DNA of 12,532 bases from a virus (lineage: Duplodnaviria > Heunggongvirae > Uroviricota > Caudoviricetes). Below are positions 8,577-12,351 of this stretch, one piece after another. Position 1 is the first letter of the stretch. Each line of letters begins with the position of its first letter. The translations under genes and the position numbers were made by a program. Under the pieces are notes generated by a model, which was not told the DNA's origin, did not search any database, and saw only the letters and a list, made by a program, of their open reading frames with translations. The stretch is from IMG/VR virus record IMGVR_UViG_2548876964_000021; one strand, written 5' to 3'.

Positions 8577-8932
8577 AGCACCACGTCCTGTGTGATAGTT
8601 ATATCCCTGATACGAATGGATATTTTCAACTTATCAAAAGCATCTCCCTCGGCTACTGACAAGCCAGAAATCGGTATGTCAGGTAAATCTACCGTCAGTT
8701 TTTGCAACAGCATTGCCTCAACCGCAATTTGAACATGCGACAAGTTGGTCGGTTCGTGTTTAAACTGCGGTAAAACATTGCCCCATGACGGATCTCCGTA
8801 TACCTCACCCTGATAAGTGTTTAGCCACTCATATAAACGAGCGCCCCAGGCCTCCTCCTGGGACTCATACGTTTTTACGCCGGATAACTCCAGCGTCAGC
8901 AAAGGATCAATTTCGTTATTGTTGGCCATCAA
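8573..8932 (-). CDS. Putative baseplate protein, gp25/W-like (119 aa)
   Basis: Start overlaps the tape-measure stop (ATGA). Contains GEVYGDPSWGN at residues 42-52, matching the G-E-x(4)-P-x-[FWY]-G-[NS] signature of the gp25/W family (P2 gpW, T4 gp25, TssE) at the expected position in a protein of about 115 aa. Confidence 0.5.
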   Translation of the reverse strand: MMANNNEIDPLLTLELSGVKTYESQEEAWGARLYEWLNTYQGEVYGDPSWGNVLPQFKHEPTNLSHVQIAVEAMLLQKLTVDLPDIPISGLSVAEGDAFDKLKISIRIRDITITQDVVL

Positions 8933-11900
8933 TCAACTCTCGCGTAGTCATTCATCAACGGATCATCAATTGACAGTGGTACCGTGCGCATAACGCCCGG
9001 CTGAGGCGTGCTGACCTTTACGACAGTTCCCTGGCCTTTCGCCGAGTCTTTGGTGTGCTCTTCAATCCTGGCAAGCAATGAGGTCATCTGCGCAAACAGC
9101 CGCTTCGTTTCACCATCAAGTGAAACGGTATTATCAGCCAACTGCATTGTCGGCTTGGCACCGGAACCGCCAAGGTCACTAATAACCTGTCCGTCTATCT
9201 GCATTCGACCAGTTGGTTGCTGCAAATCGTTGGCGGCAGTCGTCATCTGGGACGTGGAAGCTGGTTGAGGAGAATTATTTGAGCGCATTCCCCGGGCATT
9301 AATGAGTTTGTCATACAGTCCATCAATCCCCATTTGTGCGCCGAGCTGGTCAAAGTAACTTGAGTTGTTGGCCACCGGACGCGCCTCTTCAACTGGCATC
9401 GGGGTATCAACATACACATTGCCAGCTGCTGTTGCGGTCCCCTTCCCTCGTGCACGTTCTTCGAGCGTTCCCTGAACGACTTCCCGACGCATCCCCCGGC
9501 CATTCATGAATTTGTTGACCAGATCGTTAACGCCAACAGCATTGCCGATTTTGTCTACCAGACCGCCTTTCTCAAACGGGCTATCACCAGGGGTAAACGC
9601 CAGACCAGTAGACTGATCGATAACAGCGTTATCAGGCAGTGGTCCCCTCACTCCATATTGCGCCCCACCCTGTGCTCCTGCCCCAGGTGTATAGATTTCA
9701 CCACCTAAATAGCGAGCACGATGAGTATTGACCTTGATCGCGTACTCACGGTTTTCTTTCGATAAGTCACCAGTGCCTTTTTTCCACTTATTGATAGTGC
9801 CAAACCCAGCGTTATATGCAGTGATGGCCTCGTTTAAGTCTCCATTGGCTTGCTTCAGATACTTGCTCATGAGAAGAGCCGCAGCTTCTGCCGATTTCAC
9901 AGGATCAAATGCATCCTGTTCCGATATCCCTGTCTCTTTACGAGCAATACTCGTGAACTGGAACATCCCGAGTGCGCCACCACTTAACTTTCCATCTGGT
10001 GATCTTGTAAGCGGAGACTTTGCGTTAGGATCCCCTCCTGATTCAGTTGCAGCAATCGAGTAAAGAGTGCCTTCAGGAAGGCCATATTTATTCTCTAGTT
10101 CAGCAAAATACGGAGCCAACTTATCGAGATTTGCCTTACCTTCAGCGCCAAGGCTTCCGACTTTTACATCTAAGTTGCCATTGTTGTAGGTATCCGCAGC
10201 TTTCTGAATGTCATTCCTAGTGCCAGTAGTATTAAGCGACGATGATGACGAGCTATTTTGACCAATAGCTTTATCAATTTTCTGCAACGCGCTATTGCCC
10301 GTTTCTACGGCATTTGCATTGATAATCTGATTGGCAGTTTGTTTAACTGTTTTATTGCTATCTTTCGCTGTGTCCAGTGCCGCATTTATCACGCGGGTAG
10401 CAATATTACTCTGTTTGGCATCGGATTCAGTTTTAGAATCAGATGTCCCCTGGTGGCTATTAACCGGAACTTTTGACTCTGGAGTGATTTCTTTCGCATT
10501 AGCCTCGCCGATCGGATTGGGTATTTTTGATACAATCATTGCCGCAGGGGTATTTTTAACGGCATCAACCGCTGCATCTAATGCTTTACCTGGTAAATTT
10601 TTAACCCCATCCCAAATATTACCAGCCGCCTCTTTAATGTGTTTCCCTGGGTTCTTAATGAAATCAATTGCACTATCAATTGCATCACTGAAAACCTGTT
10701 TCAGGTTATCGACAGTAAAGAAGTCTTTGATGGCATCCAGCTTTTCAAGCAGCTTATTAGATGTATCGCTAAACCATGCTGAAACAGCATCACCAATCTT
10801 TGCTGTGTAATCATCGAACTTGGTAGAAATGGTGTCGCCAAGGTTAGAAATATATGTTTCTAAGTTGGTAATCCCACTATCAATGGCCAGGGCAATACTT
10901 TCCGTCGAAAATGATTGCAACATATTGCCGATATCCTCAAATCCAAGTGATTTGAGAACCTCACCAATGGCGCTGCTAATACCAGATACCAGTCCCCCCA
11001 TATCAAGAACATTAGCTAACGTATAAGCGGCTTTTTGCTGGAATGATGGATCTTGTCCTGATTTAAGCCCAAACGCTCGACGTTGCGCTTCTGTATCATT
11101 CCAACCGGTTACCGCACCATAAATACCTCCAGCCACTGTGCCGACTAGGGGAATTGCGCGTAACGCCCCTTTACCAACTGCCTTTAATCCAAGTTTACCT
11201 GCTGCCCGGGCAGCCAAATCTCCGCCTTCATGAGCGAGAGTCTTCTTGCCACCACCGCGTAGCATTCCTACAAGTTTCTTTGCCCCCAGAGCGCCAAAAG
11301 CGAGTGCTCCAGCTTTTTTCAGCATGCCACGCCCCATTAACAACGACGCGACGCCACCGGCCCCCTTCCCTAACAGGCTAAATAGTTTGGACAGCAAGCC
11401 GCCCTTCTTTTTACCGGTGTTTTTGGCTATCTGATCAAGGGCACGGAGAATCTTGTCATTGCCCTCTTTAATTTCGCTGGTCTGCTCCTGAAGTTCCTGA
11501 ACCGTCCGTTTTTGGGTGTTAACCTGAACGACATCGGCACTATTTTGCGATTTACGCCTAAAAAAACCTTTTCTACGGCTGTTATCGTCATTGCCACGAA
11601 TCACATCGGCAATAGACTTTCTGGCACCATTAAGCGATCCACCAACTTCTTTTGATATCCCGCCAAGCTCCTTCCCTGCTGCCCACAATGGACCAGCAAC
11701 GGCATAACCTAACGCATCGACGGCACGAGTCTCTGAAGGGTTACCTATGCCTTCAGCTACTTTTGACAGTTTTTTTAATAAACCTGATTCAGCATTTAGA
11801 CGCTCATCATCCTCTTTGCGCCTGGCCTTTTCAGCACGTTCAGCACGGGCATCTTCCGCTGCGGCCTTACTCCCTGACTTTCCAATAAAACGACCACGCG

Positions 11901-12351
11901 CATCGCGTTGGTTTTGGCTTTTTTGCGCACCGCCTTTTTGACCGAACATTTCGCGAGCGTGTTCGGCTGCTTCGGTCCGTTGCGCCTTTACATCTTCTGT
12001 TATAGCCTTCTTGCGTCGTTTTTTACCCTTTCGCGTAGTTGATTTGGCCTGCGGTTCCTGTAGAGCAACATCCTCCTGAACTACACGAGAAACGTCCCCT
12101 AAATTAAGCCGTTTCATTGCGTCAACAATAGGGTCTACTGATGGCGCATTGGCCACAAAGTCTGGCCGGGAATTTTCGATTGTGCGATTTAATGCCGACA
12201 CACTGCGAGAGACAGGATCAACAGTTGCAACTCGTTCCCCTTTCAAATCTTCAACAGCTTCCCGAATACCTGCAAGCTCTTCCAGCTCTTTCGCGCTGGC
12301 GGTTTCAACTGTCCTTATAACATCGTCAATATTGGCGTTTTTTCTTTCCAT
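8929..12351 (-). CDS. Tail tape-measure / injection protein with a lytic transglycosylase (SLT) domain (1140 aa); P1 Sit-like
   Basis: N-terminal about 700 aa is low-complexity, Lys/Arg/Ala-rich, with Gly-zipper hydrophobic segments (GGLLSKLFSLLGKGAGGVASLLMGRGM..., GALRAIPLVGTVAGGIYGAVTGW) typical of tape-measure proteins. SLT signature LPEGTLYSIAATESGGDPNAK...GALGMFQF...AITAYNAG is encoded at about 9760-10080. Size and domain content resemble P1 Sit as recalled; unverified. Confidence 0.85.
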   Translation of the reverse strand: MERKNANIDDVIRTVETASAKELEELAGIREAVEDLKGERVATVDPVSRSVSALNRTIENSRPDFVANAPSVDPIVDAMKRLNLGDVSRVVQEDVALQEPQAKSTTRKGKKRRKKAITEDVKAQRTEAAEHAREMFGQKGGAQKSQNQRDARGRFIGKSGSKAAAEDARAERAEKARRKEDDERLNAESGLLKKLSKVAEGIGNPSETRAVDALGYAVAGPLWAAGKELGGISKEVGGSLNGARKSIADVIRGNDDNSRRKGFFRRKSQNSADVVQVNTQKRTVQELQEQTSEIKEGNDKILRALDQIAKNTGKKKGGLLSKLFSLLGKGAGGVASLLMGRGMLKKAGALAFGALGAKKLVGMLRGGGKKTLAHEGGDLAARAAGKLGLKAVGKGALRAIPLVGTVAGGIYGAVTGWNDTEAQRRAFGLKSGQDPSFQQKAAYTLANVLDMGGLVSGISSAIGEVLKSLGFEDIGNMLQSFSTESIALAIDSGITNLETYISNLGDTISTKFDDYTAKIGDAVSAWFSDTSNKLLEKLDAIKDFFTVDNLKQVFSDAIDSAIDFIKNPGKHIKEAAGNIWDGVKNLPGKALDAAVDAVKNTPAAMIVSKIPNPIGEANAKEITPESKVPVNSHQGTSDSKTESDAKQSNIATRVINAALDTAKDSNKTVKQTANQIINANAVETGNSALQKIDKAIGQNSSSSSSLNTTGTRNDIQKAADTYNNGNLDVKVGSLGAEGKANLDKLAPYFAELENKYGLPEGTLYSIAATESGGDPNAKSPLTRSPDGKLSGGALGMFQFTSIARKETGISEQDAFDPVKSAEAAALLMSKYLKQANGDLNEAITAYNAGFGTINKWKKGTGDLSKENREYAIKVNTHRARYLGGEIYTPGAGAQGGAQYGVRGPLPDNAVIDQSTGLAFTPGDSPFEKGGLVDKIGNAVGVNDLVNKFMNGRGMRREVVQGTLEERARGKGTATAAGNVYVDTPMPVEEARPVANNSSYFDQLGAQMGIDGLYDKLINARGMRSNNSPQPASTSQMTTAANDLQQPTGRMQIDGQVISDLGGSGAKPTMQLADNTVSLDGETKRLFAQMTSLLARIEEHTKDSAKGQGTVVKVSTPQPGVMRTVPLSIDDPLMNDYARVD

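What the first reader, a model, noticed from the sequence alone, without database searches (positions are those of the whole stretch)
8929..12351. Tape-measure / injection protein with an embedded lytic transglycosylase
One 1140-aa protein combines a long low-complexity charged region, Gly-zipper membrane-like segments and an SLT domain with the ES catalytic motif, followed by a roughly 280-aa C-terminal region of unknown function. This suggests a tape measure that also digests peptidoglycan during DNA injection. It is immediately followed, with overlapping stop/start, by a gp25/W-like gene with no separate hub or spike gene in between, which is atypical for P2 or Mu layouts.
Basis: partly seen in the sequence, partly recalled or inferred. 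Interest (0 to 1): 0.45.

Follow-up and report, generated by a model that had tools for sequence, protein, structure and literature searches.

The report
P1 Sit tape-measure lytic transglycosylase

Summary
The 1140-codon ORF is real, but it lies on the minus strand (8929-12351). It is the orthologue of phage P1 sit: 96.8% nucleotide and 97% amino-acid identity, with no gaps. It sits in the P1 gene order pmgB-sit-pmgA-bplA-16-R-S inside a P1-like E. coli plasmid prophage.

The SLT domain (aa 748-867, Pfam E=2.8e-25) keeps the catalytic Glu770-Ser771 and the GMFQ and AYNAG motifs. Its predicted fold matches Slt, MltC, MltD and MltE.

The downstream 118-aa gene is PmgA, identical to the chain in the solved P1 baseplate (PDB 9ay5/9vzk), where it is the gp25-like wedge protein. 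Hub (gp6), spike (gp5) and tip (UpfC) genes exist in P1, but 20-30 kb away in other late operons. The "atypical layout" is therefore a known P1 trait.

The C-terminal ~257 aa shows no hub or spike homology. Only its last ~95 aa are conserved, and only at the C-termini of Sit-like proteins.

All of this is published (Lehnherr 1998; Lobocka 2004; Gonzales 2022; P1 cryo-EM 2023 and 2026), so novelty is "already known".

Two points remain open:
- The ruler arithmetic is tight: 1140 aa against a ~2100 Å tube.
- An unannotated Mu-like frameshift extension appears to exist in pmgB, just upstream of sit.

The parts
8929..12351 (-). sit: 1140-aa tail tape-measure protein / structural injection transglycosylase (stop codon TGA at 8929-8931)
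   Evidence: ORF. 96.8% nucleotide identity to P1 sit, NC_005856 40988-44410. 1106/1140 aa identical with no gaps. phrog_2533 matches end to end.
11752..12054 (-). Highly charged low-complexity stretch (aa 100-200) inside the variable N-terminal ~200 aa
   Evidence: 29 K/R and 16 D/E in residues 101-200. This is among the less conserved stretches in distant relatives (the least conserved is aa 601-720). A 99-aa tandem duplication of aa ~35-133 occurs just upstream of it in many relatives.
10942..11415 (-). Gly/Ala/Lys-rich amphipathic 'glycine-zipper' segments (aa 313-470)
   Evidence: Eight GxxxG motifs start in this span. Hydropathy peaks are 1.0-1.4. It is the most conserved block of the N-terminal two thirds across relatives of 26-52% identity.
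10456..10506 (-). Single copy of the 17-aa unit EANAKEITPESKVPVNS (aa 616-632), present in 1-5 tandem copies in other Sit alleles
9703..10146 (-). SLT (GH23 family-1 lytic transglycosylase) domain, aa 736-883; Pfam core is aa 748-867 (9751-10110)
   Evidence: PF01464 E=2.8e-25. This is the only confidently predicted part of the AF2 model, with pLDDT 73-90. Foldseek top hits are Slt, MltD, MltC, MltE and Slt70.
10042..10044 (-). Codon GAA for the catalytic Glu770 (motif A-T-E-S)
   Evidence: It aligns with the ES of MltC 9vi7_A and is conserved in the SLT-bearing relatives.
8932..9702 (-). C-terminal region aa 884-1140; the conserved terminal module is aa 1046-1140 (8932-9216): predicted helix 1080-1105 plus the PLSIDDPLM motif
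   Evidence: No Pfam hit at E<=10. Only 17 relatives among 1.84 billion representatives; every one long enough to judge carries the match at the C-terminal end of a 688-1367 aa Sit-like protein, the rest being 48-179 aa fragments. Conservation is concentrated in the last ~95 aa. The AF2 model is mostly coil and of low confidence here.
8573..8929 (-). pmgA: 118-aa gp25-like baseplate wedge protein 1; its ATG overlaps the sit stop by 1 nt (TGATG)
   Evidence: 100% identical to PDB 9ay5_M/9vzk 'PmgA'. Junction sequence. Role from PMC12810830 and PMC9024508.
7143..8576 (-). bplA: baseplate wedge protein (gp6/J-like); ATGA overlap with the pmgA stop
   Evidence: Pfam Gp6-like_1st and Baseplate_J. 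PDB 9ay5_Y 'BplA' matches over 1-477. Junction.
6307..7143 (-). Gene 16: baseplate wedge protein 2, to which the fibres attach
   Evidence: PDB 9ay5_a 'Gp16', E=1e-181. Role from PMC12810830.
12363..12490 (-). 3' end of pmgB (0-frame stop at 12433-12435), with a Mu-like TGGGGGT slip site (G-run 12454-12458) and a 30-codon extension in the +1/-2 frame that ends at TAG 12363-12365, 11 nt before the sit ATG
   Evidence: pmgB is the proposed tape-measure chaperone (PMC9024508).

Best explanation
The ORF is the orthologue of bacteriophage P1 sit, carried on a P1-like plasmid prophage of E. coli. Sit is the tail tape-measure protein of this long-tailed myophage and also its virion-borne cell-wall hydrolase.

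**Shown.**
- The gene is co-oriented and translationally coupled with pmgA, bplA and gene 16 through overlapping stop and start codons.
- It has an intact SLT domain with the E-S, GMFQ and AYNAG motifs.
- In P1 the protein is found in purified virions. It is essential. It gives unresolved density inside the hub and is gone from contracted particles.

**Inferred.**
- During assembly, copies of Sit sit in the tube lumen.
- The conserved C-terminal ~95 aa dock in the hub (gp6) and spike (gp5) cavity.
- The N-terminus reaches the tail terminator, and this sets the number of tube rings.
- PmgB, together with a frameshift-extended PmgB form, acts as the chaperone.

**Inferred, on infection.**
- The sheath contracts and the lysozyme-less gp5/UpfC spike pierces the outer membrane.
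- Sit is expelled C-terminal end first.
- Glu770 of the SLT domain cleaves MurNAc-GlcNAc bonds, forming 1,6-anhydro-MurNAc and opening the peptidoglycan locally.
- The conserved Gly/Ala-rich amphipathic segments (aa 313-470) probably help form or line the route for DNA through the inner membrane.
For: **Identity and synteny with P1.**

**SLT domain.** The domain, its catalytic motif and its fold are shown.

**Neighbouring genes.** PmgA, BplA and gp16 equal chains of the solved P1 baseplate 9ay5/9vzk.

**Literature.**
- Sit was detected by 23 peptides in virions and assigned as the tape measure. P1 gp5 lacks the lysozyme domain of T4 gp5 (PMC9024508).
- The cryo-EM work lists Sit as the tape measure, with low-resolution density in the central baseplate. 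The tape measure is released in contracted particles, and the termini of the tail terminator become disordered after that release (PMC12810830).
- CRISPRi knock-down of sit abolishes plating (PMC10695390).

**New supporting synteny.**
- pmgB, immediately upstream, carries a conserved Mu-like slip site and a +1/-2 frame extension that shows a coding signature.
- Variable sites by codon position are 6/6/16. Ten of 21 varied codons are synonymous, against 1 of 18 and 1 of 19 in the other two frames.
- This is the hallmark of tape-measure chaperone genes (review PMC5009743).

**SLT inside tape measures elsewhere.** SLT domains 50-60% identical to those of distant Sit-family proteins (the A4 query, P0134/P0137/P0136) sit near the C-terminus of 600-900 aa prophage proteins that give sub-threshold PhageMin_Tail matches. 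PDB 9b45 is a "tape measure protein" with an SLT-like segment.
Against: - No tape-measure profile (Pfam or NCBIfam) matches Sit.
- The ruler arithmetic is tight.
  - The P1 tube is 53 rings x 40 Å, about 2100 Å (PMC10304247).
  - 1140 aa at 1.5 Å per residue gives 1710 Å, so about 1.86 Å per residue is needed, or 2.1 if the globular SLT domain is excluded.
  - The published justification used a "120 nm" tail.
- Natural Sit alleles range from 1100 to 1307 aa, and nothing is known about matching tail lengths.
- Sit itself was not resolved in the cryo-EM maps.
- I found no paper that reports enzymatic activity of Sit or tail-length mutants of sit.
- The AF2 model outside the SLT domain has pLDDT below 50, so helicity estimates are only indicative.
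Confidence: 0.88

Rival explanations
1. Sit is an ejected cell-wall-degrading or channel-forming injection protein, functionally like podophage T7 gp16, but it is not what sets tail length. Length would be fixed by another factor or by Sit only in part.
For: - Among solved structures, the nearest sequences to the SLT domain are T7 gp16 (E about 0.01).
- Some GenBank records label the gene "protein inside capsid D" or "internal (core) protein".
- No tape-measure profile hits Sit.
- Sit is about 20% too short for a fully helical ruler of a 2100 Å tube.
- Historically, gene 6 mutants gave variable tail lengths.
Against: - gp6 is the baseplate hub in the solved structure, and at 338 aa it is far too short.
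- Literature assigns the tape-measure role to Sit; I did not survey the P1 gene set for other long helical tail proteins.
- The gene sits in the canonical slot: tube-like gene, then chaperone with frameshift, then tape measure, then baseplate.
- Density lies inside the tail and hub, and the tail terminator changes after the tape measure is released.
- The "capsid" labels are automatic transfers from T7 and are not evidence.
Confidence: 0.08
2. The C-terminal ~257 aa is a fused hub, spike or needle module. This would explain why no hub or spike gene follows sit.
For: In the window, no hub or spike gene lies between sit and the gp25-like gene. The region has no family assignment.
Against: - P1 has separate hub (gene 6), spike (gene 5) and PAAR-like tip (upfC) genes elsewhere. 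All were modelled in the baseplate structure.
- The C-terminal query finds only C-termini of Sit-like proteins.
- Foldseek on the model returns only lytic transglycosylases.
- The region is predicted to be mostly coil with one helix.
Confidence: 0.02
3. The SLT domain is a degenerate, non-catalytic structural module.
For: No enzymology was found for Sit. Two distant family members (P0131, P0135) carry a different, non-SLT module at this position, so the activity can be dispensed with in some lineages.
Against: - All three family-1 signature motifs, including the catalytic Glu, are intact and conserved in the SLT-bearing relatives.
- The Pfam score is four times the cut-off.
- P1 gp5 lacks a lysozyme domain, so the virion needs this activity from elsewhere.
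Confidence: 0.03

Closest known systems
Bacteriophage P1 Sit (P1_gp037, YP_006507; 'structural injection transglycosylase, putative tail ruler')
   Same: Same length (1140 aa). 97% identical with no gaps. Same neighbours and the same overlapping junctions with them.
   Different: 34 substitutions, which cluster in the N-terminal charged region and in SLT surface loops. The host replicon is a P1-like plasmid that lacks cin and the invertible C segment and is interrupted by IS elements.
Tape-measure proteins with embedded peptidoglycan hydrolase domains: T5 Pb2, mycobacteriophage TM4 Tmp, and SLT-bearing tape measures of enterobacterial prophages; also PDB 9b45 gp41
   Same: A long, mostly helical protein with a muralytic module towards the C-terminal end. 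It is expelled at infection and has hydrophobic Gly-rich segments. References are cited in PMC9024508.
   Different: Sit belongs to a contractile-tail phage. It matches no tape-measure Pfam or TIGR profile. It has its own C-terminal module, found only in the small Sit family.
T4 gp29 (tape measure) plus the T4 gp5 lysozyme domain
   Same: The same two jobs are done: tail-length determination with hub occupancy, and local peptidoglycan digestion under the baseplate.
   Different: In T4 the enzyme is a lysozyme fused to the spike. In P1 the spike gp5 lacks it, and a lytic transglycosylase sits in the tape measure instead (PMC12810830).
Phage Mu gp41/gp42 (chaperone with a -2 frameshift, plus tape measure) and the Mu-type simple baseplate
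   Same: The order chaperone then tape measure. A five-G slip site 6 (P1) or 8 (Mu) sense codons before the 0-frame stop. A +1/-2 frame extension that ends just before the tape-measure start. P1 baseplate proteins are named after the Mu scheme.
   Different: In Mu, the genes after the tape measure run on into N, hub and spike. P1 goes straight to the gp25-like wedge gene and keeps hub and spike in another operon. Mu gp42 has no SLT domain annotated.
T7 gp16 internal core protein (N-terminal SLT domain)
   Same: A virion-borne SLT domain that is ejected to cut peptidoglycan. It is the weak best sequence match among solved structures.
   Different: It is a podophage capsid-core protein that forms the ejectosome. 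The architecture, the location in the virion and the domain order all differ.

Membership tests
P1 Sit orthologue group (phrog_2533) | Full-length, collinear, high-identity match to P1 Sit | tested here: met
   1106/1140 identical with no gaps. phrog_2533 covers 1-1140, E=0.
P1 Sit orthologue group (phrog_2533) | Conserved neighbourhood pmgB-sit-pmgA-bplA-16-R-S on one strand | tested here: met
   The window aligns to P1 over 3844-12490 at 96.9%. P1 annotation.
SLT / family-1 lytic transglycosylase (Pfam PF01464, GH23) | Profile match above the curated cut-off | tested here: met
   88.6 bits against 21.3, aa 748-867.
SLT / family-1 lytic transglycosylase (Pfam PF01464, GH23) | Catalytic Glu in the E-S motif, plus the G-[LM]-[MF]-Q and A-Y-N-x-G motifs | tested here: met
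   E770-S771, GMFQ and AYNAG are present. ES aligns with MltC ES. The motifs are conserved in the family.
SLT / family-1 lytic transglycosylase (Pfam PF01464, GH23) | Goose-lysozyme-like alpha-helical fold | tested here: met
   AF2 pLDDT is 73-90 for aa ~730-880. Foldseek probability is 1.00 to Slt 5ohu, MltD, MltC, MltE and Slt70.
SLT / family-1 lytic transglycosylase (Pfam PF01464, GH23) | Produces 1,6-anhydromuropeptides from peptidoglycan | not testable with these tools
   This is biochemistry. No report for Sit was found.
Tail tape-measure protein | Match to a curated tape-measure profile (e.g. PF10145 PhageMin_Tail, TIGR01760) | tested here: not met
   No such hit in Pfam (E<=0.01 for the whole protein, E<=10 for the two ends) or in NCBIfam.
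Tail tape-measure protein | Gene lies downstream of a tube-like gene and of a chaperone gene with a programmed frameshift, and upstream of baseplate genes | tested here: met
   P1 order is tub-pmgB-sit-pmgA-bplA. Frameshifting itself is inferred, not demonstrated.
Tail tape-measure protein | Protein length proportional to tail length at about 1.5 Å per residue | tested here: inconclusive
   About 1.86 Å per residue is needed for the 2100 Å tube. This works only if a substantial part is extended rather than helical.
Tail tape-measure protein | Predominantly alpha-helical N-terminal part | tested here: inconclusive
   DSSP on the AF2 model gives 62% helix for aa 1-735, but pLDDT is below 50. The literature (Quick2D) calls it predominantly helical.
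Tail tape-measure protein | Resides in the tube lumen and hub, and is ejected on contraction; length changes alter tail length | not testable with these tools
   Low-resolution density and loss on contraction are reported. No length-mutant data were found.
gp25 / GPW baseplate wedge family (for the downstream gene pmgA) | Sequence-profile match (Pfam PF04965) | tested here: not met
   No Pfam hit at E<=10. A 15-sequence profile finds only PmgA itself in the PDB. None of the 20 homologues carries a Pfam domain.
gp25 / GPW baseplate wedge family (for the downstream gene pmgA) | gp25-like fold and position: inner wedge protein that starts the sheath through a shared beta-sheet | not testable with these tools
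   The single-sequence AF2 run failed (pLDDT 42). However, the protein is 100% identical to PDB 9ay5_M/9vzk. That chain is described as baseplate wedge protein 1 forming the four-stranded sheet with the sheath. HHpred gives 99.4% to T4 gp25.
Baseplate hub / spike (gp27, gp5, gpV, gpD-like) for the Sit C-terminus or the downstream ORFs | Any profile or fold similarity to hub or spike proteins | tested here: not met
   The real P1 hub and spike genes lie elsewhere.

The most novel reading that the evidence does not exclude
Sit may not be a conventional all-helical 1.5 Å-per-residue ruler.

- At 1140 aa, with a globular SLT domain inside, it has to span a ~2100 Å tube.
- Natural alleles differ by up to ~200 aa (1100 to 1307 aa). 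The causes are a 99-aa N-terminal duplication and 1-5 copies of a 17-aa repeat.
- Either large parts of Sit are extended, or the N-terminal ~200 aa lie outside the measured span, or P1-like phages really differ in tail length by several rings.
- Together with a Mu-type -2 frameshifted PmgB chaperone that no P1 record examined here annotates (JK004 calls its 29 codons a separate ORF), this would make P1 a natural test bed for how very long contractile tails are measured.
Probability: 0.2. Interest if true: 0.4.

Novelty: already known. Interest (0 to 1): 0.1.

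Why it matters
For the scan it matters mainly as a calibration point. A reader working from raw sequence correctly recognised a tape measure with a built-in cell-wall enzyme and a gp25-like neighbour. The object, however, is the textbook phage P1 sit gene on one of the very common P1-like plasmids of E. coli. No new biology follows from the finding itself.

Three by-products have modest value:
- The published argument that Sit fits the tail length used a 120 nm tail, whereas cryo-EM gives a tube of about 210 nm.
- Sit length alleles exist in nature that could test the ruler model.
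- pmgB, upstream of sit, appears to encode a second, frameshift-extended product like the tail chaperones of Mu and lambda.

Tried and rejected
1. **Full-length Sit against PDB sequences.** It gave nothing. Only the isolated SLT segment gave weak hits.
2. **AF2 of full-length Sit with an 11-sequence alignment.** Only the SLT domain was confident, so nothing could be learned about the fold of the C-terminal region.
3. **AF2 of PmgA from a single sequence.** It failed (pLDDT 42), so no fold search was run on it. The PmgA family is tiny and a profile finds only itself in the PDB.
4. **Looking for distant Sit loci to test synteny.**
   - The viral-contig scan with alignment A2 returned only close relatives.
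   - P0136 alone returned nothing.
   - The 7-sequence alignment was too diverse to search with.
   - The single genome-contig scan matched only the SLT domain of other, shorter prophage tail proteins.
5. **Contig L166, hoped to be a diverged relative.** It is a P1-like sequence full of homopolymer errors and was discarded. The 1-nt shorter G-run in locus "u10" may be the same kind of error.
6. **A Sit-PmgA read-through or frameshift fusion to lengthen the ruler.** Considered and rejected, because there is no slippery sequence at GTTGATTGATGG.
7. **C-terminal hub or spike homology.** Rejected.

Full report
**What is there.**

The window has a single 1140-codon ORF at 8929-12351 with an ATG start. 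Stop-free runs of this length are not expected by chance (about 1.7e-24).

The DNA is 96.8% identical over its full length to sit of phage P1 (NC_005856 40988-44410), and 96-97% identical to sit of RCS47, P7 and other punaviruses. The protein is 1106/1140 identical to P1 Sit with no gaps.

The window as a whole matches P1-like plasmid prophages of E. coli at 98-99% over 400-12490, for example NZ_CP045829 and pO111 NC_013370. It is collinear with P1 from inside tail-fibre gene S through R, 16, bplA, pmgA and sit to the end of pmgB.

- *Charged region.* Residues 101-200 contain 29 Lys/Arg and 16 Asp/Glu.
- *Gly-zipper segments.*
  - Residues ~313-470 are Gly/Ala/Lys-rich, with eight GxxxG starts.
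  - The 19-residue hydropathy maxima are 1.0-1.4, so these segments are amphipathic rather than classical transmembrane helices.
  - They are the best-conserved block of the N-terminal two thirds in relatives that are only 26-52% identical overall. That argues they matter functionally.
- *SLT domain.*
  - Pfam PF01464 matches aa 748-867, E=2.8e-25, 88.6 bits against a cut-off of 21.3.
  - The catalytic Glu is E770 in A-T-E-S (codon 10042-10044). It aligns with the E-S of E. coli MltC.
  - The other two family-1 motifs, GMFQ and AYNAG, are present and conserved in the SLT-bearing relatives.
  - In an AlphaFold2 model built with 11 family sequences, this is the only confident part (pLDDT 73-90).
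  - Foldseek against the PDB returns only lytic transglycosylases: Slt, MltD, MltC, MltE and Slt70.
- *C-terminal region.*
  - It is 257 aa (884-1140) and has no Pfam match even at E<=10.
  - A HMMER search of 1.84 billion representative proteins found only 17 relatives. Every one long enough to judge (688-1367 aa) carries the match at its extreme C-terminus, six of the eight scanned have an SLT domain about two thirds of the way along, and the rest are 48-179 aa fragments.
  - Conservation is concentrated in the last ~95 aa. These hold a predicted amphipathic helix (1080-1105) and the motif P-L-S-I-D-D-P-L-M.
  - There is no hub or spike similarity.
- *Junction with the next gene.* The sequence GAT TGATGG shows that the pmgA ATG shares one base with the sit TGA.

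**The neighbours.**

- The 118-aa product downstream is 100% identical to chain M ("PmgA") of PDB entries 9ay5/9vzk.
- The next two products match the BplA and Gp16 chains of the same entries.
- The P1 cryo-EM paper (PMC12810830) describes PmgA, gp16 and BplA as baseplate wedge proteins 1, 2 and 3. PmgA forms the conserved four-stranded sheet with the first sheath ring, which is the gp25 role.
- Gonzales et al. (PMC9024508) reported HHpred 99.4% between PmgA and T4 gp25, and showed that pmgA is essential for tail formation.
- With sequence-profile tools I could not reproduce the gp25 link. There was no PF04965 hit. A 15-member profile finds only PmgA in the PDB, and the single-sequence AF2 run failed. 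The gp25 call therefore rests on the published structure and not on my own test.

**Where hub and spike are.**

In P1, hub gene 6 (74329-75345) and spike gene 5 (73704-74336) sit in the LP26 late operon. The PAAR-like tip upfC (64779-65063) and upfB sit at a third place. All of them were modelled in the baseplate.

The absence of hub and spike genes between the tape measure and the gp25-like gene is therefore real. It is the known scattered organisation of P1 late genes and not a missing function.

**How it most likely works.**

Sit is the accepted P1 tape measure and "structural injection transglycosylase".

Evidence from the literature:
- It is a virion protein, with 23 peptides detected. 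About 750 residues are reported as helical, followed by the SLT domain.
- It appears as unresolved density inside the central baseplate. It is absent from contracted particles, and its release leaves the tail-terminator termini disordered.
- It is needed for plaque formation.
- P1 gp5 lacks the lysozyme domain of T4 gp5, so the SLT domain of Sit is the only recognisable virion-borne peptidoglycan-cleaving activity.

What I infer:
- The conserved C-terminal module docks in the hub and spike cavity.
- On contraction the protein leaves C-terminus first, bringing the SLT domain to the murein layer.
- The conserved Gly/Ala-rich amphipathic segments contribute to the passage through the inner membrane, as proposed for other tape measures.

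None of these three steps has been shown for Sit, and I found no enzymology.

**A caveat worth recording.**

- The argument that Sit fits the tail used a 120 nm tail.
- Cryo-EM gives a 2450 Å tail with 53 tube rings of 40 Å, about 2100 Å (PMC10304247).
- 1140 residues at 1.5 Å give 1710 Å, so 1.86 Å per residue would be needed, or 2.1 without the SLT domain.
- No tape-measure profile matches Sit.
- Sit alleles in public data range from 1100 to 1307 aa. The causes are:
  - a 99-aa tandem duplication near the N-terminus;
  - 1-5 copies of a 17-aa repeat at aa 616-632;
  - a 10-aa indel in an SLT loop.

The ruler role is thus plausible and generally accepted, but it is still inferred. These alleles offer a natural test.

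**Independent support found on the way.**

The 81 nt between the annotated pmgB stop and the sit ATG are not non-coding.

- A TGGGGGT run lies six codons before the pmgB stop (window 12454-12458, minus strand). From there, the +1/-2 frame stays open for 30 codons (G-I-P-I-Q-D-A-E-R-L-T-E-S-Y-A-F-F-L-L-E-K-L-E-E-K-L-K-P-K-R). It ends 11 nt before sit.
- I compared five lineages: P1, Cronobacter phage JK004 and three IMG/VR contigs whose PmgB is 83-90% identical to that of JK004 (P1's is about 73%).
  - The slip region is invariant.
  - The extension is conserved as protein.
  - Variable sites fall 6/6/16 by codon position in that frame. Ten of 21 varied codons are purely synonymous, against 1 of 18 and 1 of 19 in the other two frames.
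  - Upstream of the G-run, the pmgB frame carries the coding signature instead.
- Phage Mu, known to use a -2 frameshift in its tail chaperone gene (PMC5009743), has CGGGGGC at the equivalent place in gp41. Its +1/-2 extension ends just before its tape-measure gene.
- P1 records annotate nothing here. JK004 annotates a separate 29-codon ORF. Gonzales et al. propose PmgB as the tape-measure chaperone without mentioning a frameshift.
- A conserved frameshifting chaperone immediately upstream is the classical marker of a tape-measure gene, so this strengthens the assignment of Sit.
- Independent initiation at a conserved TTG cannot be excluded, and I could not read Xu et al. 2004 to see whether P1 was already listed there.

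**Verdict.**

The object is an already known gene of a textbook phage, so interest is low.

Noticed in passing
window 12363-12490 (minus strand); P1 L001 13435-13600; JK004 L164 9211-9300; L167-L170: pmgB, just upstream of sit, has a Mu-like TGGGGGT slip site six codons before its stop. A conserved 30-codon extension in the +1/-2 frame ends 11 nt (P1) or 3 nt (JK004-like) before the sit ATG. Across five lineages the codon-position bias is 6/6/16 and synonymous changes are in excess, which shows that this 'intergenic' DNA is coding. P1 records do not annotate it. It is probably a programmed -2/+1 frameshift like Mu gp41 or lambda G/GT.
   Followed up: yes
sit alleles in P0001-P0120 and loci L004-L083; window positions 10456-10506 and ~11950-12250: Sit shows natural length polymorphism, from 1100 to 1307 aa. 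The causes are a 99-aa tandem duplication of aa ~35-133 (17 of 76 IMG/VR loci), 1-5 copies of a 17-aa repeat (EANAKEI[T/A]PELKAPVNS), and a 10-aa indel in an SLT loop.
   Followed up: partly
P1 literature versus window 8929-12351: The published justification of Sit as the ruler assumes a 120 nm tail (PMC9024508). Cryo-EM gives 53 rings x 40 Å, about 2100 Å of tube (PMC10304247). Sit would need about 1.86 Å per residue.
   Followed up: partly
window 12491-12532: The last 42 nt are 100% identical to the chromosomal E. coli gene htpG, not to P1. The pmgB/htpG junction at 12490/12491 is found in none of 5426 complete E. coli genomes. It is probably an assembly chimera or a contig-end artefact, and it cuts pmgB.
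   Followed up: partly
window 1-399 and 397-657: The left end is the 3' end of an IS3-family (IS629-like) element, ending in the inverted repeat ...GGAAACCCGGGGCGGTTCA at 399. The insertion truncates the gene downstream of the lydA holin gene (a lydB-like ORF of 86 aa here, against 147 aa in pF1273-3).
   Followed up: partly
window 1044-3843: The P1 cin invertase and the invertible C segment are absent. In their place is a low-GC (31-39%) stretch with a serine O-acetyltransferase-like gene (1739-2311, + strand), a single lambda-gpK-type tail fibre assembly gene (2355-2933, - strand), and a different C-terminal half of tail fibre S with His-x-His repeats and a triple [10 protein letters not shown] repeat.
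   Followed up: no
window 8573-8929 versus loci L039-L073: PmgA is 100% identical at the protein level in loci where Sit is only 75-90% identical. The wedge protein is under much stronger constraint than the tape measure next to it, or else the boundary of a recombination mosaic lies at the sit/pmgA junction.
   Followed up: no
distant Sit-family proteins P0131, P0135, P0132: Some distant family members keep the Gly-rich block and the C-terminal module but have a different, non-SLT insert where Sit has its SLT domain. The enzymatic module is therefore exchangeable.
   Followed up: no
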